Below the pieces are notes generated by a model, which was given only the letters and a program-made list of their open reading frames with translations, was not told where the DNA came from and made no database searches. Shown piece by piece: positions 1,408 through 63,356 of a stretch of DNA of 64,000 nt. This stretch comes from Botryllus schlosseri. Lineage: Eukaryota. The position numbers and the translations under genes were made by a program. Numbering within the stretch: position 1 is the stretch's first letter; each line of letters starts with the position of its first letter. The stretch is from the NCBI GenBank assembly GCA_051294905.1, contig CM119371.1, positions 29,452,001 through 29,516,000 of the forward strand, written 5' to 3'.

Positions 1408-4400
1408 ATGAAGTCCATAGTTTGCTGTTGCGGAATATGGTTTACAGTGATACGCGGATCTTTTGCGTTGCCTGGTGGGGCGCCGAGCGGGGCTTGCAAC
1501 ACGTTCACGCCGCGACACGCAGATCGAGACAACGCCGGGAGTTTCATCAGCCCGCAAAGCTCGGATTCGCTACCTTACGAAATACGGCTCTCCAAATCGA
1601 ATTTCACAAGCAATGAGGTAGTCAGAGGTGAGATCATGTATTTCAATCGAATAAAAATTTCAAGGTATACCTATACTTCATTGTATATTACAAGTAACTG
1701 TAGAGGTTGCCAAATGGGTCAGCGTTGGTCCTCTAGTAAAATTAGGGGCAACGCCGTAAATTTCGAATAGAATACAAGTATCCTACATTTTTTTTTACTT
1801 AGGAAGTAGGTAAACATTGCTTGAAGTAGAGGTAGGAAATAAATGCGTGATGAAAAGTACTCAAGAATGTGGATTTTGTCGACTTGCCGCGTACTTTTAG
1901 CAGTTAGTCGCAGTTGACTACTTTCGAAATTGCAAGATGCCCCAAATGACAAGTGAAACTACAAACACTTTCACTTTACCAAAATAAGCTCAGTTACCGT
2001 GACACAAGGGCTTTTATTCCCATTATTTTTATTTTACGTAGTAGAAAAGTGTCACGTTTATGAGTGCATCCCATTAGAAACTTGCAATGCGTCCTCTGTA
2101 TCATAGAACAAAAATATAAATTCGAAAACCACATCTCCTTGTAGTCGACATTATTCACCCTGCGTTAACCGTGAAAGTCACAGCTTCAATTTCGAAGGTA
2201 TATCCACAAAGCTGGACTGGCAAAATTAAACGGCATATCGCAACGATCTCCTAGAATTACTCACTTGAGTACATTTGCAATCGCATGTTTAGTACCTCAA
2301 CTTCAAGCAATGTTGCCAGGTCTTGAAATCGGATGCCCGACGTATAAGCAGAGCATGCGACAAAATGAAAAACCACAAAAGTGCATGGGACAGTTGGGAC
2401 ACTTGGGCATGCATCACTGCCGCATGTGACTTATTAACCCCAAACTAACCCTAATCTCAACCCTGTAACTCATCCCTATATATATCCTATCCCAACCCTA
2501 AATCCAACGACAACCTGTAATTTAACCTGCATGCTCATTTCTCGCATTTGTCGCATACTCATATATCCACGGGCCCCTGAAATCGTTAATTCCACGTAAT
2601 AGAATATAAATTTATTTCAATGTTTCTTCCTACACCTGACTATCCTCTTGATTATAAGTTTTTGGCCCCCATCTCCTGTGCTTGCGAGGCCCGTAAACAG
2701 GTCCAATTGTACAGATATGTGAATTGAATGTTCCAGTGTGGATAACGGTTACAAGAACCGGAGACGATTCCGGATATCGAGGCTTTCTTCTGCAAGCCCG
2801 AAGCAGCGCCAGTTTCGACAATGGGCCGCTGGGAACGTGGCAGAACCCGCCTGCGTTTACCAAAACGATGGATTGCAGCGGCGACAGCGATGCGATGACG
2901 CACAGTGAAGTCACAAACGTCAAAAACGAGGACACGGTTTTCGAGTGGAAGGCGCCGTGCCCGAGTGATATAGGAGACGTTGTGTTTACGTAAGCACTCG
3001 GTTTGTGTATGCAAGCGAGACAAGTGTTATTTGGCTCTTGAACAATGTGTTGATTTTGCGCTAATTGCAACGAATCTATTGGCTGAGAAATCAAGTCACA
3101 GCCGCGTCACAGCTAGTCAAGTATGTTTTTGCAATGCTTCAGCCTTCAACACAAAGTCAGATATGCAAATAATACACTGAGTCGACCCTAATTTCTCGGA
3201 TCATTCAAATAACCACTTCCACTTCTACTTAATATGTTTTTATGCAAAGCTACTCACGATTTAGACATTGAATTTTGTAAATTAGAAAATATCAAGATCT
3301 AACTTGTTTTAACACCTTATTCAGCGTCCACTTGCAACGTAATAATTTTATTTATCACACGAGCTTTCGGAGCTCCGTTCCTTCCTCAGGTGCTAAAGTG
3401 AAAATAACGCAAATCGATTATGAATTCAAACATATACGCATATTGCGACATCACAGAGAAGATAACTTTCAGGTCCGAAAATCGATTTGCGTTATTTTCA
3501 CTTTAGCACCTGACGAAGGAGAGGAGCTCCGAAAGCTCGTGTGATAAATAAAATTATTACGTTGCAAGTGGACGCTGAATGAGGTGTGAAAGCAACCAAG
3601 ATCGTAATATTTTCTATATAGTATGCTATCGGTTCAAAGAATTAGTAAATTGGAAAGTAGCTTTGGGAAATGTTTTGCATCGCCTTTACAAAGTATAAAT
3701 TGTCGTGACAAGCGGACGAAATAGCCTCCATACCACGGTAACTGAATTTGTTCTCGGAAGTTGCACAATGCACATATTTGCAGGGTTACCGTGTGTCCTC
3801 CTTTAACAGGAACATGAAAATGTCCTCCAATGACTCCTTTTTGATAATTCGCCCCCTATTATAGCTTTGATAGTCAGGCCATTGGACAGGCGCAACTAAA
3901 AACGCCATGAATGACGCGAAAACTCTAATGTGGATATTAGAGCGGGTCATTCGGTTGTAGGATAAAAAATCATTTTGGTTGACACAACAGTAGTATTATA
4001 GTAAAGTGGGTCATTCGGGACTCGAGTTGGATAAATGACCTCCATATCCCAAAATGTGGTAACCCGACATGTTTGTATTCATCATTTAGTCGCGAAAGAT
4101 CACCCGTCCATTTCAAAACAAGTCGCCTCCGACTAATCGGTGAGAGTATGCGATAGCTCAACTAAATCTACTTTATGAAACGATTACTAGCTCGCGTATT
4201 CTACAATTCCTCATTTCCACTTCCCTCGAAGTAGTTTTGACAAATGTTGAAAGTTGGGAATATTTACTTCTGCTTCTATTTATAGGATGAAAAAGCTAGT
4301 TTGAGTGACTATCGTAATAAATAGCGTGCATGAACGATAGGATAGCAACGGGGTGTCAAACTCAACTTGCCCCGCTGTTCGCAATTAAACCTTCAGACCA

Positions 4401-20955: not shown

Positions 20956-21594
20956 ATTGGTGTTACATATATGTTTATATACATTGACGAAGATTTTGAC
21001 GAAAGTAGCAAAACTACGGACGGGATTATTTAAAACTTTAATTTCATAGGCGTAATATTAGAAGCTGCTTTTGCCTTTTAGTCCATACACCTGTCTATAC
21101 TAGGAATGGCCGAATTAGTAGTCATTAAACATAGTGCATTTGATGCAATTCAAAAGATATCCCCCGTGCGCTGTGACTGAACGAAATTTCATTGTCACAG
21201 GATGTTTTAAGATGTCGTCAAACAAAATTCTATCAAATCCAAACTATATGCGGTCGAAAGGCAGCCGTTTTCGCGCCTAGTATTCTAGGAATGCTCATTG
21301 GGAATATTCGAAGATAAGGAACTACTGTTGCACCATGAAGCCGATGTAACATCTCCGTTTCTCCGGACGTAGATCACTCTGGGACCGCACATAAATTATT
21401 ACCCATATAGCCCAAGAAATGGCAGTGGAATGAGACATTACATCATTAATAACTGATATGGCGTGATTTGTCAAATGAATTTCTAAAAAATCAGTAATAA
21501 TTAAAGAACTTCTCGGAGGTACAGAACTTCAATATACAATTACTTGATTCATTAACCCTAAGCCTAAAACGCTAGAGTTAATTTCCATGGTTTT

Positions 21595-22075
21595 AAGCAA
21601 GTCACGAGTCATTCTCATTTTTTATAGTTTTGACTGGAGTCAAGTCGAGAAATTTTCAATTCACCACCGTCTCAAGTCCGAGTCCATGTCAGCTATAGTA
21701 TAGCTATAGAGGGTCGAGTCCGAGTCATATTGTTTTGACTCAAGTCCGAGTCATTATGTTCACTGTTCAGTTTTCAGTTCAATCCGGTTCAAACCACATT
21801 TTTTCAACTTTGCCCGAGTGATCTGGAATGGCTTGCATTCATAATATCGAAATTTTCCTCAGTTTCTGGCCATATTTTAAAGTAGCAGGACTGCGATAGA
21901 CGAAATACCAATCATGTGGTAACTAACTATTCTTCGGAATTACAATGATATGACTGTCTTAGCTGTCCTAGTCTCGAGTCATATGACTTAGTGCGAGTCA
22001 TACACAACGACTCGGGTACAATTCGAGTCAATATTCACATTTGAAAAAATGTGTCGAATCAAGTCGTTACACCAA
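21595..22075. repeat. GAGTC/GACTC-rich MITE family copy
   Basis: Numerous GAGTC(C)GAGTC units. Internal sequence is shared with ~24110-24565, and a related element lies at ~34550-34841. Confidence 0.55.
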
Positions 22076-22852
22076 AAAAGGCTAATTCGAAGCTGTTACA
22101 TTTAATTTAATTTGTATTTTAGTAATCAGTGCGACACGAGCTTTCGATTAGGAACAGTTTTGTAGCATTCAGTAGCATCTGAGCACTTGGATTGCCAGCT
22201 ATAGGATAATCAATTACACTGGTTTTAGCCGGCTCAGCAGTCAGCACTAGACCGCTCTGAATATTCAAGTGTGACGACAGAGTTGCGCGTCTATCCGTAG
22301 GTTAGTGATCTAGAGTCCCAGTAAATGGCTTGAATAGTACGGGTTCTATAACACCACCCTAGTTTTAACACATAAATCCTTGCGTACACGACGACGTCAT
22401 TGTAACGAACTTCGATTTTCTCCTATATTGACGTCAGAACTCTTCAATTGCAACTTCACAGTTGATTCACGATCATGTTATATGGTTCTTTCGAGACTGC
22501 AATTGAAAATATAGGGTTGATATGGCTCCATTGACGAAAAAAGGATTCATTTCCTTGTCTTGAACGCACTAAAGAATACCTTTGAACAGGTCTACTTCAT
22601 TATATACCGCTTTTACTGTTTGCGATCACCCTCTTCAGAACATCCATTCGGATCCAGTCCTATACAGTCTGCGTGTTATAACTTATGAAACGAACGCTAG
22701 AATGTAGGGGGTGTTAATGACTCTACGTCGTATATACGTTTCCTATTTCTATTTCGAAACGTCCGAATATTTATACTATATGTTTTTTGAACAGCTTCTT
22801 TGAGGTACAGAACTTCAATATACAATTGAATAGTATATTCATATTAAAATGA

Positions 22853-22896
22853 ACCCGAATATTTTCGGCTGACACTCGTCAGGGGTAATCGTCAGC
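22853..22896 (-). ncRNA. Minimal type I hammerhead ribozyme (inverted copy)
   Basis: Reverse complement of 23973-24016. Confidence 0.85.
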
Positions 22897-23972
22897 AACT
22901 AGTAGAGAATTCGAAAGAACAGCGTATATTAACAATCGTAACACAAAATATGACGTCACCAGCACGAAATGTCGAATACGAGAGCGTTCAATGTACTATT
23001 TTTAGATGATACACGAACTCTTTTTGTTGACACAGCCTTGGCTGGTGTATTTTGATAAAAGTCGACTCCAAGGCGCACAAATGAAAGTGTGAGCGACCCT
23101 TTCCGAGTATGCGAAATCTGTCGTCTCGATAATTTTTCGCACAGGCGGGATTATCCAACAAGTGTTTGCCAATTGTAGAATTTATGGCCTTTGATTGGTC
23201 CGCATCAGTCTTGAGCGGGTGAGTTAAGGGTGAGCTTTTCATCGAGCGTGTTCTAATGAATCTAGGGACATGCTGATTTACGCGTTCCTGCAAGCGCTTT
23301 GACGTTCTTCCCACGTAGCCACAATCACAGTGGCACTTAAATTCGTAAGCTACATTGCTTTGCTGAAGTGCGGGTAGCACGTCTTTACGTGTTGCGGGGA
23401 GCAGTTGCGTTGTCGTGAAAATCACGACACAGTGAAGACCAACGTGATTTTCACGACAACGCAACTGCTCCCCGCAACACGTAAAGACGTGCTACCCGCA
23501 CTTCAGCAAAGCAATGTAGTTTACGAATTTAAGTGCCACTGTGATTGTGGCTACGTGGGAAGAACGTCAAAGCGCTTGCAGGAACGCGTAAATCAGCATG
23601 TCCCTAGATTCATTAGAACACGCTCGATGAAAAGCTCACCCTTAACTCACCCGCTCAAGATTGATGCGGACCAATCAAAGGCCATAAATTCTGCAATTGG
23701 CAAACACTTGTTGGATAATCCCGCCTGTGCGAAAAATTATCGAGACGACAGATTTCGCATACTCGGAAAGGGTCGCTCACACTTTCATTTGTGCGCCTTA
23801 GAGTCGACTTTTATCAAAATACACCAGCCAAGGCTGTGTCAACAAAAAGAGTTCGTGTATCATCTAAAAATAGTACATTGAACGCTCTCGTATTCGACAT
23901 TTCGTGCTGGTGACGTCATATTTTGTGTTACGATTGTTGATATACGCTGTTCTTTCGAATTCTCTACTAGTT

Positions 23973-24016
23973 GCTGACGATTACCCCTGACGAGTGTCAG
24001 CCGAAAATATTCGGGT
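23973..24016 (+). ncRNA. Minimal type I hammerhead ribozyme (Penelope-associated)
   Basis: ACCC-CUGACGA-G-UGUCAGC-C-GAAA-AUAU-UC^-GGGU: intact core, stem I ACCC/GGGU, palindromic helix III (AAUAUU). Predicted cleavage after 24012. Confidence 0.85.
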
Positions 24017-26289
24017 TCATTTTAATATGTATATACTATTCAATTGTATATGTTTTTTCTAAAATATTTAAACAATCATGTTTTTTATTCAAATATGATC
24101 AAAATATGATCATCACCTAGTCAAATCCGAGTCCGAGGGTTTTTGTGGAGGGTTGAGTCGAGTCAAAGTCAATGTCTTCACTGTTCAGTTACAAGTTCGA
24201 GCAATGCTTAACGCAATTTTTCATCACTCAGGTTCGTGATAGCGAATGCCTCTCAATCATATTATGCTAATGTTCATCATCCTTCGTAATTTATGACCCT
24301 ATTACTCCGATGCAAGAGTACAGATAGATGGAATACAAATAATGTGGAATGTATATTCTTCGAAGTTACAATGGAAGTTCTATTCCGGCCGTCGGAGTCT
24401 CGAGTCATATGACTTGTATACAAATCGAGTCAATACAAAAATTGACTCAAGTCGAAGCGAGTCAAATAAAGAGGGAGAAATTGACTCGGGTCGAGTCGAT
24501 TCACTGACAAATCGCCACTAGAGTCGGACTTGAGTCGATTAATGTATCGAGTTATTACAACCCTTGATGAATTATCCATGACTGCATGCTATATTGAGTA
24601 TGTTCGTTATTCAGGACCGTTAGATTATGCAGGTGTTCCGGTCCGAAACTTACAAAGATTCTCATTATAATACAAATATTTCCTACCAGGCTTAGCAAAT
24701 TTTGTTTCGTATAAGAACCAATTTGCACGACTACAGTACAAGATTATTTTCCCACTAATTAGTTCTCATGAGCGCAGTCGACAGTGCGGCCAAGGTACTA
24801 ACTGTACCGCAGGTCGAATGTTCATGTGATGTTATTGATGTGTAATCGAACTCCAGTAGGTTCTCTTATTCGTTGCATATAGTATATCTTTCAAATTCCA
24901 ATAGACCTGATCTTATTCAGGTATAATACTTGACCGTATCCTAGTAGTCTGTCGATAAGGATTAAGTAGATGACCGACAACAACGTTAGTGACAAGATAC
25001 AGGCATTTGTCCTCCATAATAACCTACCATATATACGATATAATAAGCAACTTCATCCATCGTGCGTTCCGCACAAATTCCACAATTTCCTTCTTTAATT
25101 TTTTTGTGATATCAAAATAACTGATGAAGACATCCACAGTGTATTTAATTTTCACTTTGTAATATACCAAATACATGAAGCAGGCCTATACTACTGCGTG
25201 GAAGCTCTGGATTGGAACCATTGGATTCCGATCCAAAAATCACTGTGTTTGCCTTTTGCCTTGCCCGTTAGATTCGCTTCTCACGAATTTGCGGTCAAGG
25301 CTCTTTCAATATGTTCCGAATGACATCAACACAATGCAACAATGGTATATACACGGGGATATGGACATAAGGATATATACATAATCTGAAATAGGCGAAA
25401 ATTTTTTGAGCTATGAAGTTACGAAACATATTTATGACTTGTGATATTGAGCAAAGGGTTGGAGAAGCCAGGTGCTTTTCTCTCCGTGACTAAACGACAC
25501 TGGATATAGGCTAGAGTTGGACCCTCATTACCGTAGCATTCCTCAGTCCGCTTAGGGCATTTTTGTCGCTCACAAACCGACATCCCTCTTCACTTCGGCA
25601 CAATGCAGATATTACACTAACGTCAGGAAATGTAAAAACAAGCCATTATAGCCTAGCTCATTTCCTGTGTCGATATTGAATGGAGGCATGCAGTGAGGAA
25701 TATTGTGAATGTATCAATCCCGCTCTGTCTAGTCTAGTGAGATCGTTTGAGATGCCAAGTTTTGTATACGCGTTAACAGTAGAGTTTGTAATAGTTATCT
25801 TAATAGCTGGATGAGGAGCGGAGGAATATTACGTAGTTTGCTTCTGTCAGTACGGACGTATGTCGAATACCAGGGAATTTGGCACTTGGCGGGCCTTTAT
25901 AGTACTAATCCTAACCTTCCCTCACCCCTAACAACAAACCCTAACAATAAACTCGCCCTAACTATAGCCCTAACGGCCTGACCCAACCCCAGACCGTAAA
26001 TAACCCTGATCCCTATCCCGAATACATTGATATTGACATGAAGGGCCATGTGCCGAATAGCACATAGCACATGCTTACATAATCATTATAGTTTCTACAA
26101 TCTTCATGCCGAATTCACAAAGTGCCGAGTTTGCTGGTAAGGTATACACAATGTACAATGCAATAAGACACAATGCGTTGCAATGAACAGAACAGCACTG
26201 ATATCCGTCTCTGCCCTGCCCGATGTCGCTGTTCTTTCTTCAATTTTTGTCTCTATTCCGCGACTCTCTGTTGTACTTTCCATTCCTTT

Positions 26290-27803: not shown

Positions 27804-30800
27804 ATGATATTATATTTATGTTTCGCACTATTAATAGCTGGCGCAAGCATACAAGGTGAGTTAGTTTCTCCATCCCTTCTTGATTTGAGTTTTCCCTGCT
27901 AGGGAGATAGAGAGCGAGAGAGAGGGAGAGAGAGAGAGCGAGAGAGAGCCGATAAGAGAGACAGAGAGCCAGTGTGGGCGGATGAGAGAGAGAGAGAGAG
28001 AGAGAGCTAGTGATAGAAAGAGAGCGGGGAATATTTATATATAAATAGAAGGAGCAACCCCTGCCCCATGTATAGGCCTACATCTGACGATTCTGGTCAG
28101 ATCAAAATCAACAAAAGTCAGAGTCGTCAATCCCAATGCTCAAGTACAAATATAAGTAATGTCACGCCTTCTTTATCGATTAGAAATAGATGTAGCCGTT
28201 CACAAACAGCGTTGAAGTAGAATTCTAAACCGAAAAATATTGTTCAAGTAATTCACTGCTCACAGCTTTCAAAATTACAAGAATGCATAATGGCAAAACG
28301 CTTGAAGAATGACGAATGGCGCACCATCTATACCAGACCCGGGCAAAGTGCGGCCCGTGAGCCAAGTGCGGCACGCGAAAAGCTGGTTGAAATTCAAAAC
28401 CTACGTTTTAACGTTGCTGCGTGGACTAAACCATAGGCTGTATAAATTGAACCGAAAATTCATTTACTTTCAAGCATGTTCATTATTTTGCCGCCATTAC
28501 GCAGCCTACTTACGTCGCATTCGTAATCCAGATTCGAAATAACGTAACTGTAGAAAAGTATGCCGTATCAATTAAAGTCACTAAAAGTCATCAAACCTTC
28601 TTTGTTGCCATTGCCACACTATGCGTTACACGGCCTGTGCTCGAAATTGTTACGTTTACAAATCACTAACTCGTAAAATAAGTCAATCAGTGCCAGTGAT
28701 TACTAATGAGTCATCATCACCAATAAAGGATGAACTGGCATGTGAAAAAGAGAAAGCAGAAAGTTGAAAATCATTGTTTTACGGGAGTCAGGGGTGAACC
28801 CGTCTTTTCAGTAGTTAGTGCCGAGCAGGTCCCCGTGTTTAAGGAGTAGGCCTATGTATAATGTAAGTCGGCTATGACAAAAACACGAATACATACCCTC
28901 GGTCAAGGTAAGGGGAATTTCGGAAGAACTGCAAGCTTCGCTCAACAGCAAGGCTATTTCGCCAAGCTGCACACTGCTAGGAAGGCAGCTTCGAAGGCAA
29001 TAAGCTTTGTAGTATCTCAAACACATTTTAATGTCTTGATAGACCACCGCGGACAGGGGTTTAAAGAGAGTTCAAAATGTATCTTCTCATTTGGCCCGCG
29101 GAGAAAATATTTGCCCATCCTTGATCTATACTCATGATTGTTCAAATTATTATACTTTGCTGCCACGATTTAGTTGCCATATCGCGCGGCTGTTACAACA
29201 ATCTAACGCATAAAAGTGATGTATAGCGATCCCAACACTACTTATTTTATGTGTCGAGGGTATATTCAATCGGGAGGCTGCACAGACTAAAGAATAACCA
29301 CTTGAGTCAGCAAGTTGTGCAAGAAGGCAACGTACCTAACTGAGTATTAAAAGATAGAAGTACTCAGTTACTGACAGTCTCTGATTTCACAATTTTATCT
29401 AGAGTACCTGTAAATTATTTCTTCAGGACGGAAATGTTCAAACTATTCATTTGAATGCAACGATGGAAGTCAGTGTCTATATATTGGTCACTTTTGCGAC
29501 GGGCGGAAACACTGCAGGTAATATGATGGGTCGCTGACTGCTTGCACGGTGACCAGAGCCGAACGGTCGCATAGTTTCCCGTACGGCTCCACTTCAGACT
29601 ATCGTCAGATTAGAAACTGCTACTAAGACCCTTGCAATTGTTTTAGTAAACTCAGCTTGCCAAATTTAGATGTGGGTCGCGGAATATGTTCCAACCGGTA
29701 ATTGGGACGTGACAATGAAAAGGCTACGAACATTGCAAGCCACATTGCCCACACTGCAAACCAATAAGGTTTGGCCTCTTTTTCGCTTAGCCGATCGGTT
29801 TCAAAATGAAACCTTTGTCGCGGACCTATCTCTTAAAACGCAAATGTTTAACAGTGGAAACTCAATGAAGCTGATTCACTATAGGGCAGTGGTTTTTACC
29901 CAGGATTCACACGGGCCCTAGGGCCTCGCTGAGCCAGTCACAGAAATTTACAGGAGGTAAGGACACTCAATAAATTCGTGGTGCGCCCGTGCTAGCCATC
30001 ATTGGCTGCAGAGAATCAGGCGCGTTCACCTCCAATTGTGACTGTTCCGGTGCTATACGTTATGGGCAGTACCGTGCGCAAGGAAGACTTGTGTTCGAAA
30101 TCGAAACCAGTTCCTTTAGAAATACTGATTCATTACAATAGTTTCATTTTGTTTTATAAATCATGTTTTATTTCATTTGTACTTTTACCGCTGATGCTGA
30201 TGCATACTCATAATCCATGATGTGTGTTGTGTATATGTACCTGTATTCTATAGTAATGTTTTAGGTGGTGGAGATGTGGTACCGATGGATCACTGGGACC
30301 GAAAATACTTTAAAAATTCTCCATCTTAATTCCATGATTACACTCCGCGAACTTGTATACAATTTCATGTTGGCAAAATCTTTACCCACATACAAAAAAT
30401 GTCGACGTGCGCGAGCTATAGGGTCTCTGACAGATGTTTTCTGTTTTGGGGGGTGTAAACTAAATTTCGATCGACGCACACATTTTTCTTTGTAACCTTC
30501 AGTACGAACAAACCAGCAATCCTTTTTAATGTGAAGTGTAAGGCTTGTATGAGGCTATATAATGACAGATATTAACTTATTCAATACCTTCCCTGAGTGG
30601 AATTTTTTTCGATTAAAGTATAAAATTCGTAGGGGGGACCAATGATACAATGGCCAAATCAAGCAAAATAATCAAGCATACTAATCATGCAACAACTAAA
30701 ACATGCCTACACACAGAAAATATTTATGTAATAATTGCATGTGTTGTTTTATCGCTATAGGTATTTGGAAGTCACAAGGTCGATTTTCGGGCAATATGTA

Positions 30801-45800: not shown

Positions 45801-48800
45801 TATTTCCATGCTGCCGGCGCCCATCAGAGAATGGCTTTAAGTTGAAGTACAAAGCCGCAGATGTGATAATGACGCGGAAAATTGTAATACATGAAAAAGG
45901 TACACTTACACGGTGCAGAACGTACCACGGTTCGTTTGCGAACGCAAACCTTCCAATATTTGAGGTTCACATAGGCCTACATCAACACGAGCAGAATTAG
46001 CGGAGTACAAAAATACAGATTCAAGCCATATTAATATATTGTAATACCGACCCAAAATCACCGTTTATCATAGTTTAGGTTATTTCTGATTATGTTTACT
46101 CTACTGTTTGACTTTTCTATTCAATATTTGCAGCTTTTCCAAGAACCTCATCAAAACAATTCTAAGCAGCAAAATGTATGTATCAGTAGGTCAGGGATAT
46201 ATCCCTGCAGTAGGTCTACCCATTGAATAAATATGGCTTGCTTGGAAATACAAGGAAATAAAATTAGCTGGGCAGTTTGATGTCTTACCTTAAACGACAA
46301 ATCGGCTACGTAAGAAATGAAGTTCATACAGTTATGAAGCAAAATTGGTTCACATGCTCTGTCCAAACTTACAACAGCACAAATTATACTTATCAATCGG
46401 TTCGCAGTCTCAAGGAAATGTTTCGCAGAGCCCATCAGTTGAAAACCTCAGTGTTAGATCGTGATAAGATAATCTCGAGCGCATATTATTTTTAGCAATA
46501 ACACATCATATGTATTGCAGCCGTACCCATCCCTATTCCGATTAGAATTGAGACGGATTCGATGTATTATGTGAATTGTGGTGGATAAGTTTTGAGTAAA
46601 CTGGAAAATAGTGTATCATCCCTAAAAAAGATTTGACTTTAGTTCATTGTTATGCTATAGTTGGTATTATTTTTACGGTGATGCATATTGTGAAAGACTG
46701 TTAGCTTATGCATTCAGAAACATAAACATTTAAATATAGCGCAGTTTTTTCTTGACATACTGAATCACTTGGTCCAACATGTATTGACTTGGCAATAATT
46801 CTGCTGTGTTAAAAAAATTATCATTTCAAATATATCGTTTCCGATTCGCACGTAGCCTTACATATTTAAAACAGTTTCATAAATAATGATCGATGGTATC
46901 GGGCAACAAACATAGTTCACACAAAGGGGAATCACTGCATCTAATCTTATGTAGGTGATAATTGAGCCGACAATGGCTGATTTCATCCGAAACAGAGTAA
47001 TTTGCTCTTTTTTTGAGGCTACGCTTGATAACTTATTGTAAATCGTGTCTTTCATTACTTTATAATGTCTTCCGGCCTCACCCGTCCTATACACTTGATC
47101 CCAGTTGTTTATGCGCGAATTCCTAAGGAGTGACTACGCATCCCCATGGCGACAAAGTCCAATTGGTAATGGGGCGGTGTTTCTGATGATGCAGCGTTTC
47201 TTTCAAATCGCTCTGCGATATCATTGTGTTGGATACCACAGTGCGTTGGAATCCACACCAGTGATAGTGTGATGTGTGACCTCGTGTTGTTACAATTGGT
47301 ATATCTTCTCGGCAATCTCGGTGATTTGGAAAGGAGCTGCGAAATTGAAGTTTGCTATGCATGTTAAGTTGGCTCAAGCAATCACTCAGTATAGCCACTC
47401 CTATATGGGTATTATTCACCACCTATAAGATTAGTGTATCTTAAATAGCGATTAGTTGTTCTAATTCAATCTCTTCATATTCCAGATATGCGACGGCCAC
47501 AAAGATTGCTTATCCGGAATTGATGAATGCCAGCCAGGCTGCATAGACAGCGCGTTTTCCGACGAGAAGTCGATGATAACAAACAAAGTTGTCCTGTCAG
47601 TTGTGTGGATATTCAGTGAGTCTCCGTTAAATAAATTCATGGTTCATCATCGTAGAGGTGCGATATAGTATGTTGGCAACGGGTATATTCGCATCGGATC
47701 ACTGTCCTTTCATTGCCGGCTCAGTCAGGCAGTGACCTCCAATCAACAATCTCTGTAAGTATTTGATGAGGCTACATGCCGCAGGATCCCGGGCTTGTGT
47801 AATCTTGCTTGCTGGAACTAAGAAACGTATCCGTGTATCATTAATACAATATCATCTCACAAACCTCTTACAATATCTAGCAGAGAGGTGAAAGTACCTG
47901 ATTACATTCTGATAGCAACTTGTCACTTCAATCCTGATTTTATTATCTCAATGATCGGAGGAGAGCCTGACAACGTGTTTTGCTTCATATTATGTCTTTA
48001 TGATCACGTAGGCTGATATAGTGTAAGTAATTAGAATTGACTTCAAGACCTTGGTGAAATAAATTGATGTGGTAATAGTGCAGCAGTTTGTAGACCGCCG
48101 CGAAACATTTAGTATTGATTCAACAGGACGACGTAGCACCGTGACCGCTACTCGAATATTTCCAGGTATTATTGCGATCATCGGATGTACCGCAGTGGTT
48201 ATATCGACATCATATGATGTCGTGAAATCTACGAGACGTCCTGCTAACTCATCGTCATCAAATATCAACAAATCGCTCATCCTGAGTCTGTCCGTTTCTG
48301 ACTTGTTTGTTGGGGTATTGCAATGAATGCGCGTTCTGCGTATTGAGAGTGATTTTTTTTCGCGACCAATTACAGTTATACACCTTTTGCGTATGCATCA
48401 AGTCCATTCAAGTGGAAGGCAGCTACTGCTTCGTTGATAATGAATGGAGAAGCAGCACTACCTGTGCGATTTTGGGCGCTTTGCTGGTCATCGGATCAGA
48501 GCAATCTGTTTTTACGATGGTTTTATTAACAGGATATCGTGTGCATGCTGTCATGAGGTATGTGATAGGATATAATCCATTGAGGCTTTTATTGATCAGA
48601 ATTTAAGGTCAGATAACTCATATTGTTGTGCCAGTTGACTATGAAACATACGTGGTGGGGGCGAATAGCTCATAGTGATATATCAAATCATTGCATTGAT
48701 GTCGATTATAGGTTACAGGTTTTAAGCAGACCGAAGTCTACTCATGAATCCACCCCCCTCAAGTATTCGAGTTTTATCTAGCTATTAGGTGCATGATTAG

Positions 48801-51800: not shown

Positions 51801-54800
51801 CCCGGCCTAAATTGATACAAGAGAAAATCACATTTTGACGATGTGTGTTTACTGTCAGTCTGCTGGATCGGCTCACTTTCAATAGGACAATTCATTCCTG
51901 TCAAATAAGGCCTACTTGGAAAGACATAGAACACCCCTATAAGTGCTGCGGCCCACGGCGTCGTCAAAACGCGAAAACTGGCCCGCGAGCACATTTGAGT
52001 TTGAGACCTCTGTTCTAGAACATAACCAGGCCATGAGTCAAAAATCTTCTATTGGCAAACATTTACTAGAAAATCATACATGTGCTGCTAACTACCACGA
52101 GGACATGTTCTCTGTATTGGCTAAGGGTCGCAATTTATTTCATTTGTCTGTTCTTGAGTCCACCATCATCACTTTGAGTAAACCTAGTTTGTGCCAACAG
52201 AAAGAATTTGTGTATCATTTGAAAATCGCGCATTAACTTGTTTGGCTTCGCTATCTCCATGCCAACGCTTCAGTTCTCTCGTTTTCCTAACTTTGTATGT
52301 TTTCAGTGTGACGTCATAATTAGCGATATATATTGTTGCTGAACAAAGTTATTCGAATTCTCGCATTATTGCTGACGATATTCCCCTGACGAGCGTCAGC
52401 CGAAAAGCTTCGGGAATAAATATGAATATTTTACTCAAATGTGTTATGAATTTTTTTTATTATTTCTACCATAATACATAGGCTATTGTAACCACTGGAA
52501 TTCTCCATAGGGTCAGATTTCGGTAAAATATTGTTTTTTTTTTCATGTAAAAAGTTGCCTGTTTCTGAGCCAATCAGGTTTTTTCATGCCAAACTACTTC
52601 GTTGGGACAGCCAGTTCCTACCAGAAATGGAGATAAGTGGTACAAGTTTTATGTTATGTTGGAAAGCACCTAATTTGCATACGTTTGGTCAAAATTTGGT
52701 CAAAATTCAGTTTGTTTAGGTCAAAAAATGTCAAAATTTTGATTTTGTAGGTCCAAATTTTCCTTTTTTTTAGGTAAAAAACCACCCTAGTGATTACATT
52801 CTAATTCTGTCTCAGTGTCGTCCTACAAAAAAATCGACCAAGAGAATGATGGTCATTGATGTGGGAGTATTTTCAGCTTCTGTGTCTTCAATTGGAGATA
52901 TTTTTAGTTGTAATATGTTTGCTACAGGCCTACCTTTCCTCGACTTGGTTTCGTAAATGGAGAGAATTATTGGAATTTTCGAAGTTCAATGATAGCGCAT
53001 TGTTCAAATTAAATTACACCTTAGAGATAATTATTCTTTATTGAAGTTTTGATAGTTGCCGATGTTATATTCAATGATGCCTCCCGAATACCCGAAGTAT
53101 TGTACAAGTTAATGAGACTTCGGATGATCGCATTCGAAAGATACCAATATCTATTGTAATAACAACGGATTGCTCTTTATTTGGAGAACGCCACAATTCG
53201 TTGACGTACGCCTACTTGAACGGTACGTAATGGCATTATAGATTACTCTTATTTCCGAGCGACATTGCCATATCGTAAGGTAGAGAATGCCACATGCTCT
53301 CACTTTTAAAGCAAGTTATTTCCATGGACGTAGATAATTAGAAGAGAAACCTCCAGTTTTATTATATTCATACGGCTTCGACTATTTAGTTTCAGACCAT
53401 TGTCAAGGCCGAAGTTGAAGCGAGCAATTTCGGGAATCGTCATTTGCTGGTGTATTTCGATTCTTATTGGATTTATACCTTTGACCCCTTCGTTCGAAGA
53501 TTACTTTCTGAAAGAAGTGTCGTGAGTGAAATCTTCTTTGACGTTGATGCGACAATGAGTCTATTGGTACTTTAATTGAGGCGGTTTGCTGGTTACATTG
53601 GTTGCCTGATATATATATTTAATATTTAAAAATCATATATGCTACTGAAAAACAGTTCTTTTTCGGAGTGACAGCGATTTCGTAAGTTATTTTGACTCTA
53701 ACTAATGAATTAAATCGGATCTCATATTAAACTTATTGTGCATCAGCTACAATAAAGTTCAATGTTGAACACTGAATACTGGTCAGCAAAAAAACCAATG
53801 AAATCGGTCCGCAGATCAGAAAATGATGTCGAATCTGCTGTAGAGGGCTCAAATTTCATTCATTCATACCACGATACGCTATTTTGTCCAAAAATACGCG
53901 ATCCCATGAGGAGCCATCACCGGTAACAACGCATCGACAGGCAATGGTTATTCATAGCGAAATACTCCAGTTATAGCGAAGTTGGCGTGAACACTGTAAT
54001 GCGTGTCTTTAGGTTCAATGACACTGCAATCTTTAAAACAAAAGTCCACCGCAACGATAAAGAGCTTTTGATAAAATGGTTGGGATTCCTAAACAACGGC
54101 ACGATTCGAAGACACGGCGACAGGTGATTACTACCATTTTATGTGCATTCCGAATTGGAAATTACTGACGATTTGATCGATTGTCATAACAGCACGGAAT
54201 GGGGCACATTGAGAAGACTGATTTCTCAAATAAATACATACAGTCCGATTTTGGCTACACACGAATTCGGATATTATTCAAGTCATACAGTTTGCCTGCC
54301 TACGTTCTTTCCCGACCGAAAGAATGACGGGTCATGGGTGTACTCATTGGTTCTTCTATTGCTAAATTTCCTGTCGTTCGTTTTCATGCTCGTGGGCTAC
54401 ATCGCCTTGTACAGGTATGAGTTATCAGTCTAGGGCAAGTTTTTGAAGCAGTTAAATCCGTGGAAAGTTGCATTTATTTTTGAAAAAAGTTGCAGAAGTT
54501 GCATTTTGACCACATTTTGCTCGGTTGACTAAAAAAATGGTCAATTTTCCGGCTCAGCTCCCGAAATACCCGTGGAAGCGTTACTTCGGTGCTGATTTAC
54601 GGTGTTTCAATTGAATTCGGCCGTGTATTTCACCAAAAATGAAAATACTTTCATGAAAAATCGAGAAAGTTGCAAAATGTTGCAAAAAGTTACATGAAAA
54701 AAATGGTCAAAAGTTTCAAAAAGTTGCACTGTAAGATTCTTTCAAACAGCTTAAAGCAGCATTTTACATATCTTACGAGTATTTAGGAAGCTGCCGGAAG

Positions 54801-61560: not shown

Positions 61561-61814
61561 AGTATGTGGGAGGAGCAAATAAACTTACGATAATGTGTGC
61601 TCAGCCCTTTAGCTCAATCTAACTTGGGAATTCATAACAGTTTCATAACGTTAGATGAAGAATATCGACATGGGGTGAAATGACGACAGAATGTTGAAAG
61701 CAGTACAAAGCAGTAGTTTCGAGTATTTGCTCTTAATACTAGATAACGAGCAAACGCATCGGCTGAGGTCAAAGTCTGTTTATAGTTTATGTAGTTTATA
61801 GTTTCCCTTTCCAG

Positions 61815-63221
61815 ATATGCGATGGCCGCAAGGATTGCTTGTCTGGAATCGACGGATGTCAGCCGGGCTGCATAGATAGCGCATTTTCCGATGAGAAGTC
61901 GATGATTACAAACAAAGCTGTACTGGCAGTGGTGTGGATAATCAGTGAGTCTACCCACCGGTCAAATCCATGCTTTTATCATTCCACAATGGACAGGCTA
62001 ATCGTCGAATATTACAAGATTATGATTACAAATAGAGGTGTCTTGATAGTGGTGTGTAGTCGGTACTGTTGGTCACCAAATTCAAGCCCTGGTTTATGCC
62101 TATTACATCCAGTTTATAATGCTGCAATTTTCGACAGTTGCGAGGTTTAAGTGTGGAAAGCTATCATAAACACTCGTATATCAGCTGATAAAACCGTCTT
62201 CTTACCTCCGGCTTAATCACGGTAATGAGTTCTGTCCAATCAATGATCTCTTTCTAAATATCCTATCAGCATATGCTCCGCGGTATTTCGACCATGTTTC
62301 ATATCATGCGTGTACTGTACCATGTGTCATATGTATAACACCATATCACAAACCGATTCCAATATCTCGCCCAGAATACTGAACCTATATCATTACATTC
62401 TGTTAGAAATATTATACTCATTCAACCATTAGATTACTATCCTATGATGGAAGGACAGGTTGTTAACATGTTTCAACTCGTGTCACGTTAAAATTATCAC
62501 ATAAGTTGATGCAGTGTATATATTTTGAACTGAGTTCAATACCTTAGTGAAGTAAATGGACACGAAAATTTCCCGACTGTTGTTGTTATTGTTATTATAT
62601 GTTGGTATTTAGACTATACTATAGTCGTTATACACCGCGCCGATATTCCTTATGGTGATTCCATATTTTCTGCCTCGTACCACAGCTCAGTTCTACGCTC
62701 TCTGCTTACGCGGATAAGATGGCGAGGAGTTCTTCATACAATATACTTTTATAAGACCAGCACAAACCCATTGCCATTGCTCTAATCGAGTGACGTAGCA
62801 ACGTAACTGGTACCCGGTGTTTTTCAGGTATTATTGCGATCTTCGGATGCACGTCTATAGTTGCGTCGAGACTGCATGATGTCGTGAAATCCACTAGACG
62901 TCCTGCTAGCTCATCGCGATCTAATATCAACAAATTGCTTATCTTGAGTCTATCCGTATCTGATTTACTTGTTGGGGTATCACAAGGAATGGCTGTTAGG
63001 CGTATTATGCGGTGTATTCAGTGTAACGACTAATTACAGATTTACACCCTTTGCATATGCATCAAGGCCATTCGAGTGGGAGGTAGCTACTGCTTCGTTG
63101 ATATTGAATGGAGGAGCAGCACCACTTGTGCCATTTTGGGCGCTTTGTTGGTCATCGGATCAGAGCAATCTGTTCTAACGATGGTTTTAATAACAGTATA
63201 TCGTTTGCATGCGACCGTGAG
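61815..63221 (+). CDS. Second, paralogous LDLa-GPCR segment (last LDLa half plus TM1-TM3); presumably continues beyond the window; no 5' exons found
   Basis: Exons 61815-61944, 62828-62976 and 63040-63221 have the same lengths (130, 149, 182 nt) and phases as 47486-47615, 48166-48314 and 48376-48557. The frames are open: ICDGRKDCLSGIDGCQPG...LSVSDLLVGIYTLCICIK...EWRSSTTCAILG. Confidence 0.85.
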
Positions 63222-63356
63222 GTATGGATTAGCATATTGCATTGAGGATTTCATTGATCGAAAATTATAGTGGAGTATCTCTTCGAAATTATAACTCATA
63301 TTTTTATTAAAGTTGAATAAAACACATGCGCGGCAGGGCTGGCGAATGGCGTATAG

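What the first reader, a model, noticed from the sequence alone, without database searches (positions are those of the whole stretch)
22818..24051. 1.2-kb near-perfect palindrome: head-to-head Penelope endonuclease copies capped at both ends by hammerheads
Seen: 609-bp arms (~99% identical) around a 16-nt spacer that continues the reading frame of the right copy, with a GIY-YIG ORF and a hammerhead reading outward on each strand, and one candidate TSD around the whole unit. Known: Penelope-like elements carry hammerheads and can form inverted pseudo-LTRs. Inference: the unit arose in one recent event by fold-back during reverse transcription. A transcript from either side would form a ~600-bp hairpin (an endo-siRNA source) and end in a ribozyme whose own antisense lies upstream, so self-cleavage and silencing would compete.
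Basis: partly seen in the sequence, partly recalled or inferred. Interest (0 to 1): 0.75.

Follow-up and report, generated by a model that had tools for sequence, protein, structure and literature searches.

The report
Ordinary head-to-head Penelope retroelement insertion
Two cut-short tail ends of a very abundant Penelope-like jumping gene landed back to back in one jump, leaving a 1.2-kb mirror repeat; this layout is already described for these elements and this copy is a dead, well-preserved example.

Summary
The palindrome is in the sequence: 609-bp arms with 6 substitutions, a 16-nt spacer in the right copy's frame, a C-terminal GIY-YIG remnant and a minimal hammerhead on each arm, and a 12-bp target-site duplication. 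The unit (22789-24046) is therefore the described Penelope layout: inverted 5'-truncated copy, one-sided 30-40-nt tail, TSD. The family is very abundant in this organism; a second, unrelated head-to-head hammerhead palindrome lies in the same window; 6 of 18 scorable related loci from other samples are also head-to-head. Neither arm contains the other, and both outer ends match the target by a few bases, so priming from both target strands fits better than pure fold-back, though a fold-back join at the centre is not excluded. The cleavage-versus-silencing idea has little support: the ribozyme is of the type reported inactive as a monomer, and no transcription of this locus was shown. The centre and right junctions were not seen in independent reads. 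Ordinary; low interest.

The parts
22777..22788 (+). Left copy of the 12-bp target-site duplication; its last 2-3 T also match the end of the element's tail
   Evidence: family match extends to 22786
22789..22817 (-).
   Evidence: family depth and end clusters at 22786, 22793, 22802; BLOSUM score 50 against the N-terminus of P0005; 3 of 20000 random stretches as good
22818..23426 (-). Left arm: 5'-truncated Penelope-like copy reading leftward
22840..22842 (-). ATG of the element's ORF inside the pseudo-LTR, just 3' of the hammerhead (counterpart 24027-24029 on +)
   Evidence: same layout in L001
22853..22886 (-). Minimal type I hammerhead motif, left copy; predicted cut after 22857
22988..23426 (-). 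GIY-YIG endonuclease remnant, left copy, with three amino-acid differences from the right copy
23427..23442 (+). 16-nt spacer, element sequence in the right copy's frame (moderate support)
23443..24051 (+). Right arm: 5'-truncated copy reading rightward, no tail; last 5 nt overlap the TSD
23426..23881 (+). GIY-YIG endonuclease remnant, right copy (151 codons plus stop; no RT, no Met before the catalytic motif)
23983..24016 (+). Minimal type I hammerhead motif, right copy: 4-bp stem I, 1-bp stem II, palindromic stem III; predicted cut after 24012
24047..24058 (+). Right copy of the 12-bp target-site duplication

Best explanation
A dead, doubly 5'-truncated insertion of a canonical (RT then C-terminal GIY-YIG) Penelope-like element, made in one event. 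Shown: anatomy, TSD, one-sided tail, common source of both arms. Inferred: the element's endonuclease nicked the two strands of an AT-rich target 12 nt apart; each 3' end paired with element RNA by a few A:T pairs (2-3 nt left, 5 nt right) and primed reverse transcription, the left at the tail end and the right about 30-35 nt further in, the two habitual end classes of the family. Synthesis stopped about 0.63 kb in and the two new strands were joined head to head. The join may have been annealing of two cDNA ends or a short fold-back of the right cDNA that then met the left one. Since then the copy has only accumulated point changes; it cannot encode a working enzyme and its hammerheads are passengers.
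For: Neither arm contains the other: tail left only, spacer right only. Left end coincides with the commonest listed family end (22786: 115, 156 and 102 contigs in X1, X2, X6); the right end maps 2-8 nt outside a second cluster (22825/22826: 62 and 66 contigs in X1, X6) (only the best-supported ends are listed, 2054 hidden). 12-bp TSD with microhomology at both ends. Both arms share the letter that is the minority in the family at 11 of 25 listed non-mismatch sites in the arm (read by eye, X1; 82 rows hidden), while 16148 of 29126 laid X1 records are only 90-95% alike. In related loci 6 of 18 with a visible 5' junction have an abutting inverted 3' end, with offsets of 314-845 nt, too long for simple hairpin loops. 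In vitro, the Anolis element cleaves and extends both strands, starts at two sites that bound the tail, and is predicted to be a dimer (PMC11167929).
Against: An offset of only 16 nt after about 610 nt is what a cis fold-back gives naturally and independent stops give rarely (0 of 6 related head-to-head loci are near-symmetric, though short-read assemblies would lose long perfect palindromes). The spacer assignment rests on a 4% null. [quoted passage not shown] The empty site was not seen, and the centre and right junctions do not appear in the listed pieces.
Confidence: 0.62

Rival explanations
1. Pure fold-back (first reader; self-priming in the literature): one primed cDNA, or an antisense RNA, snapped back over a 16-nt loop and copied itself; the tail asymmetry came from endonuclease trimming of one end during resolution.
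For: 16-nt offset; identical source letters on both arms; homologues have Tyr/Phe just before the spacer (13 of 13), which if coded TAC would give a 3-nt complement at the turn (inference); the arm itself begins with a 13-nt inverted repeat. PMC3846280 proposes self-priming; PMC8557442 ascribes the tail to EN-mediated resolution.
Against: Needs an extra step to leave the tail on the arm that lacks the loop; offsets of 314-845 nt in 6 of 6 related head-to-head loci and 44 and 123 nt at two strand-switch joints of this family in X6 (direction not given) show that symmetry is not the rule.
Confidence: 0.24
2. The palindrome existed at a source locus and was retrotransposed whole from a read-through transcript.
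For: Explains both arms sharing source letters; PLEs can move sequence between pLTRs (PMC3846280).
Against: A 600-bp perfect hairpin is a poor template (inference); no second copy of the centre was seen, but the listing was truncated.
Confidence: 0.06
3. The locus is a working regulator: a transcribed hairpin that yields endo-siRNA against the family, gated by hammerhead cleavage. (Concerns function, so it does not exclude the origin above.)
For: Predicted full hairpin, -1185 kcal/mol. siRNAs matching Penelope inverted regions are reported in transformed D. melanogaster (PMC3681739). Family RNA is present on both read orientations in X23.
Against: Only 115 of 2596 laid RNA reads are 99% alike or better and 98% run on into unlike sequence, so they come from other copies; unique-flank bins 22324-22482 and 22589-22747 have no RNA depth and no pile-up of ends is listed (another sample, about 6% of the run). 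The isolated motif is predicted to fold its core into a competing hairpin. Monomeric minimal hammerheads showed no cleavage (PMC4209133).
Confidence: 0.07
4. Assembly or fold-back read artefact.
For: Centre and right junctions are not among the listed pieces; at one arm mismatch (23208) X1 holds none of the left arm's letter.
Against: Arms differ by 6 substitutions and no indel; flanks are different and bounded by a TSD; the tail is on one side only; an X1 contig runs from 21960 to 22813 without a difference, from unique flank into the tail; at 23349 the remainder left for the left arm's letter is near single-copy depth in X1 and X2 (14 and 29, upper bounds) and zero in X6. X1 and X2 are one sample, possibly the source of the assembly.
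Confidence: 0.03

Closest known systems
Pen2a_Av / Pen2_Av insertions of Adineta vaga (Arkhipova et al. 2013, PMC3846280; passages and Discussion read)
   Same: Inverted pLTR completing the insert, 9-10-bp TSD, 31-bp tail on one inverted pLTR, pLTR plus tail encoding the first residues of the ORF, head-to-head junctions.
   Different: Here both copies are truncated within the endonuclease linker and differ by only 16 nt at the centre, so almost the whole insert is palindromic; TSD is 12 bp.
General EN+ PLE insertion structure (Craig et al. 2021, PMC8557442, Fig. 2 legend and passages read)
   Same: Inverted 5'-truncated copy adjacent at the 5' end, inverted repeats flanking the unit, 30-40-bp tail at one end, hammerhead in the pLTR, CCHH-type GIY-YIG.
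   Different: No upstream direct pLTR and no RT in this copy; the homologues end in a P-x-L-C motif where the usual catalytic Asn is expected (the expected position is recalled).
PAc, Poseidon of Anolis carolinensis (Frangieh et al. 2024, PMC11167929; parts 1-2 of 4 read)
   Same: Two RT start sites bounding the tail inside the ORF start; AT-rich target; both strands cut and extended; hammerhead next to the ORF start.
   Different: There the ATG lies within the hammerhead and RT starts 111-118 nt into the ORF; here the ATG lies 15 nt past the cut site and ends fall about 17-57 nt into the ORF. That study did not build inverted insertions.
Minimal type I hammerheads of metazoan PLEs (Cervera and De la Pena 2014, PMC4209133; passages read)
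   Same: Conserved core, short stems, palindromic stem III suited to dimer folding.
   Different: One motif per strand here, so no cis dimer; stem II is a single pair.
Rearranged Penelope copies with long inverted repeats in Drosophila (PMC3681739; passages read)
   Same: Inverted copies as a potential source of dsRNA and siRNA.
   Different: There siRNAs were sequenced; here transcription of the locus is not shown.

Membership tests
Canonical EN+ Penelope-like element | GIY-YIG endonuclease at the C-terminus of an RT-bearing ORF | tested here: met
   Remnant aligns to the C-terminus of P0004, P0005, P0010, P0013, which carry PF00078; the RT itself is absent from this copy
Canonical EN+ Penelope-like element | CCHH motif with two cysteines between GIY and YIG | tested here: met
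   C37, C39, H58, H94 invariant in 14 of 14 aligned sequences; definition from PMC8557442
Canonical EN+ Penelope-like element | Hammerhead motif in the pseudo-LTR | tested here: met
   Core invariant and stem I paired with changed sequences in 8 of 8 motifs compared; stem III fully self-complementary in 4 of 8. Not detected by Rfam
Canonical EN+ Penelope-like element | 5' truncation, partial tandems, inverted copy, one-sided 30-40-nt tail, short TSD | tested here: met
   Depth falls from the 3' end inward; go-back joints 22988-22786 and 23205-22785; strand-switch joints; end clusters 40 nt apart; TSD
Canonical EN+ Penelope-like element | RT groups with PLE/telomerase RTs in a tree | not tested
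   No reference set of named PLE RTs was on hand; the window has no RT
Penelope/Poseidon clade | No CX2-5CxxC zinc finger in the RT-EN linker | tested here: met
   Absent by eye in the remnant and the 13 homologues; absence alone does not place the clade
Neptune / Nematis clades | CX2-5CxxC zinc finger upstream of GIY-YIG | tested here: not met
Naiad / Chlamys | N-terminal endonuclease, no canonical hammerhead | tested here: not met
   EN is C-terminal and a hammerhead is present
Active hammerhead ribozyme | Self-cleavage at the predicted site | not testable with these tools
   No pile-up of ends in X23; isolated motif not predicted to fold as a hammerhead
Hairpin endo-siRNA locus | Transcribed through both arms and yielding 21-22-nt RNAs | tested here: inconclusive
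   Only long RNA of another sample was laid; no locus-specific reads; no small-RNA data

The most novel reading that the evidence does not exclude
Head-to-head Penelope units are built by reverse transcription primed from both target strands at the element's two start sites, and this locus records it base by base (tail on one arm, loop on the other, target matches at both ends). With a very large family in this genome, a census of centre offsets and end classes would settle how inverted PLE insertions form, which the papers read here call undefined, and could reveal a minority class closed by cis fold-back. I found no paper stating the two-strand model for PLE inversions in four searches, which cover only open-licence papers.
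Probability: 0.4. Interest if true: 0.45.

Novelty: new member of a known kind. Interest (0 to 1): 0.17.

Why it matters
As a single locus it matters little: the layout, the tail, the hammerheads, the self-priming idea and siRNA from inverted Penelope copies are all in print, and the pattern recurs in this window and in related loci. Its value is as one clean fossil of an insertion pathway that is still not worked out, in a family large enough for a statistical test.

Tried and rejected
No whole genome was held, so the family could not be counted and the empty site could not be searched. Rfam: 0 matches at gathering score; by E-value only miRNA-like hairpin matches caused by the palindrome centre, rejected. 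No solved structure matched the homologue profile. No RNA holder was listed on record; this is no evidence on expression. X6 shows no depth on the unique left flank; the tool warns that holes prove nothing, so presence or absence in that sample was not called. Summed depths were not turned into a copy number. Bacterial promoter scan is not meaningful for this organism. Self-comparison by tblastx gave no exon near the unit; whether the unit lies in an intron is unknown. The excess of left-arm changes (4 left, 1 right, 1 unpolarised) is too small to interpret; RNA editing of a hairpin template was considered and not supported. My first hammerhead scan missed motifs with a bulged stem II; the rerun found two more, with 1 hit in 30 shuffles. 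In one search, L001 and L007 were left out (other families at DNA level) and 4 of 22 remaining groups had no visible 5' junction; grouping of redundant contigs was by eye, and L002/L003/L004/L015/L022 share a flank and may be collapsed assemblies. No supplements were read; those of PMC11167929 and PMC3846280 may hold junction examples that bear on the mechanism.

Full report
Observation. The inverted repeat is the longest of 33 in the window: arms 22818-23426 and 23443-24051, 609 nt each, 16 nt apart. They differ at 6 positions, 5 transitions and 1 transversion, with no indel. Each arm carries an outward-reading open frame with a weak GIY-YIG match below Pfam's cut-off. A search among longer proteins gave 13 hits of 87 candidates at 45-58% identity; the remnant aligns to their C-termini, several have an RT domain before it, and the CCHH residues are invariant. 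There is no RT in the unit and no Met before the GIY-YIG motif. A descriptor scan found hammerhead cores at 23987 (+) and 22882 (-), and a third in a 73% relative at 52386, against 0 in 20 shuffles. Rfam did not detect them. Across 8 motifs from the window and related loci the core is kept, stem I stays paired while its sequence changes, and stem III is fully self-complementary in 4 of 8: the minimal type described for animal PLEs.

The boundaries are wider than stated. A 12-nt direct repeat lies at 22777-22788 and 24047-24058, matched by 3 of 200000 random and 75 of 200000 AT-rich site pairs. It leaves 29 nt (22789-22817) between the left repeat and the left arm. This stretch is element sequence. 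Translated from the ATG at 22842 on the minus strand it continues a frame that matches the N-terminus of full-length homologue P0005 (score 50; 3 of 20000 random stretches). In sequencing runs of this organism, family depth runs through it and contig ends cluster at 22786, 22793, 22802 and 22825/22826. So the left copy has the tail and the right copy does not.

Is it real? An X1 contig covers 21960-22813 without a difference, from unique flank into the tail; an X2 contig covers 22045-22787 with 3 gaps. At 4 of the 6 arm mismatches the right arm has the family's majority letter; at a fifth the left arm agrees with the 52386 relative; one is unpolarised. At 23349 the depth left for the left arm's letter is 14 in X1, 29 in X2 and 0 in X6; at 23208 it is 0 in X1, 55 in X2 and 152 in X6 (upper bounds). 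Only the left flank, left arm and centre were laid, the tables were truncated, and no listed piece shows the centre or the right junction. X1 and X2 are one sample and may be the assembly's source. Different flanks, a TSD, a one-sided tail and substitution-only differences are still not what a fold-back read gives (inference), so I put an artefact at about 3%.

One event. Of 29126 records laid from X1, 16148 are 90-95% alike and 3402 are 99% or more; the arms are 99.0% alike and share the family's minority letter at 11 of 25 listed non-mismatch sites (read by eye, 82 rows hidden). Both arms come from one source lineage. The 1% drift means the copy is young relative to the family, not new; no rate is on hand for a date.

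How common is the layout? In X6, 2 of the 15 listed joints (309 hidden) switch strand on the element, 44 and 123 nt apart, and go-back joints to 22785-22786 show partial tandems. In 35 related loci from metagenome contigs, grouped into 24, 18 had a visible 5' junction and 6 of these had an inverted 3' end abutting it, with offsets of 314-845 nt. The window itself holds a second, unrelated head-to-head palindrome with a hammerhead on each arm at 3283-3616. In print: Craig et al. (PMC8557442, passages) describe an inverted 5'-truncated copy at the 5' end and a 30-40-bp tail at one end; Arkhipova et al. (PMC3846280, passages and Discussion) describe inverted pLTRs with 9-10-bp TSD, a 31-bp one-sided tail that extends the ORF start, and propose self-priming for head-to-head junctions. 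Earlier notes of this scan report the same pattern in this and other genomes; they are unchecked leads, not support.

Mechanism. Simple fold-back makes the second arm a copy of the first, so one arm should contain the other. Here the tail is left and the loop is right. Both outer ends match the target by a few bases and fall at or near the two end classes of the family. The Anolis element cuts and extends both target strands and starts at two sites that bound the tail (PMC11167929, parts 1-2 of 4). I therefore favour priming from both strands of a 12-nt staggered cut, followed by a head-to-head join (0.62). Against this, a 16-nt offset is what a hairpin gives, none of the 6 related cases is that symmetric, and that paper found initiation without homology to the target; pure fold-back with trimming of one end keeps 0.24. 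A mixed path, in which the right cDNA folds back and meets a tail-primed left cDNA, is included in the favoured reading. All mechanistic steps are inferred.

Function. A transcript through the unit would fold as one hairpin with every hammerhead base paired to its antisense. But each strand holds one minimal hammerhead; such monomers showed no cleavage (PMC4209133, passages) or needed the element's protein, and the isolated motif is predicted to sequester its core. In the RNA run laid (X23, another sample, about 6% read) 2596 reads fit, 115 at 99% or better, 98% running on into unlike sequence, in both orientations, with none on the unique-flank bins and no pile-up of ends. This neither shows nor excludes transcription in a carrier. 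siRNAs from inverted Penelope copies are already reported (PMC3681739, passages). A 2026 preprint on retrozymes (10.64898/2026.07.22.740005, passages) found cleavage in 1 of 9 dimers and says nothing on inverted insertions in the passages seen.

Verdict. A real, well-preserved, dead head-to-head insertion of a canonical Penelope-like element, most like the Penelope/Poseidon clade by lack of the linker zinc finger (no tree was made). New member of a known kind; interest 0.17.

Noticed in passing
window 3283-3616: Second head-to-head palindrome from an unrelated family: 137-nt arms, 92% alike, 60-nt spacer, a hammerhead with a longer bulged stem II on each arm (cores 3510 + and 3389 -); no TSD longer than 7 nt found.
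   Followed up: partly
window 21501-21541: Tail-only remnant of the same family, 88% alike, spanning just the stretch between the two end classes, 1.3 kb left of the unit.
   Followed up: partly
window about 52050-52460: Single older relative (73% over its 3' end) with the endonuclease C-terminus, a hammerhead with a 7-bp stem I and the ORF start.
   Followed up: partly
window 47480-48605 and 61809-63267; also about 35709: Two paralogous sets of exons on the + strand, by eye an LDL-receptor class A repeat followed by GPCR-like transmembrane sequence (label recalled; Pfam gave no hit on the one piece scanned).
   Followed up: partly
window 23414-23426 and 23443-23455: The arm begins with a native 13-nt inverted repeat right at the centre, which may have helped the join.
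   Followed up: no
alignment A1, last 25 columns of the endonuclease: The remnant and 12 of 13 homologues have Cys where GIY-YIG enzymes usually have a catalytic Asn (usual position recalled).
   Followed up: no
L006, L011, L034, L035: In these head-to-head loci the two arms are only 76-80% alike, so they are either old or built from different templates.
   Followed up: no
window 27893-28034: GA-rich simple repeat.
   Followed up: no
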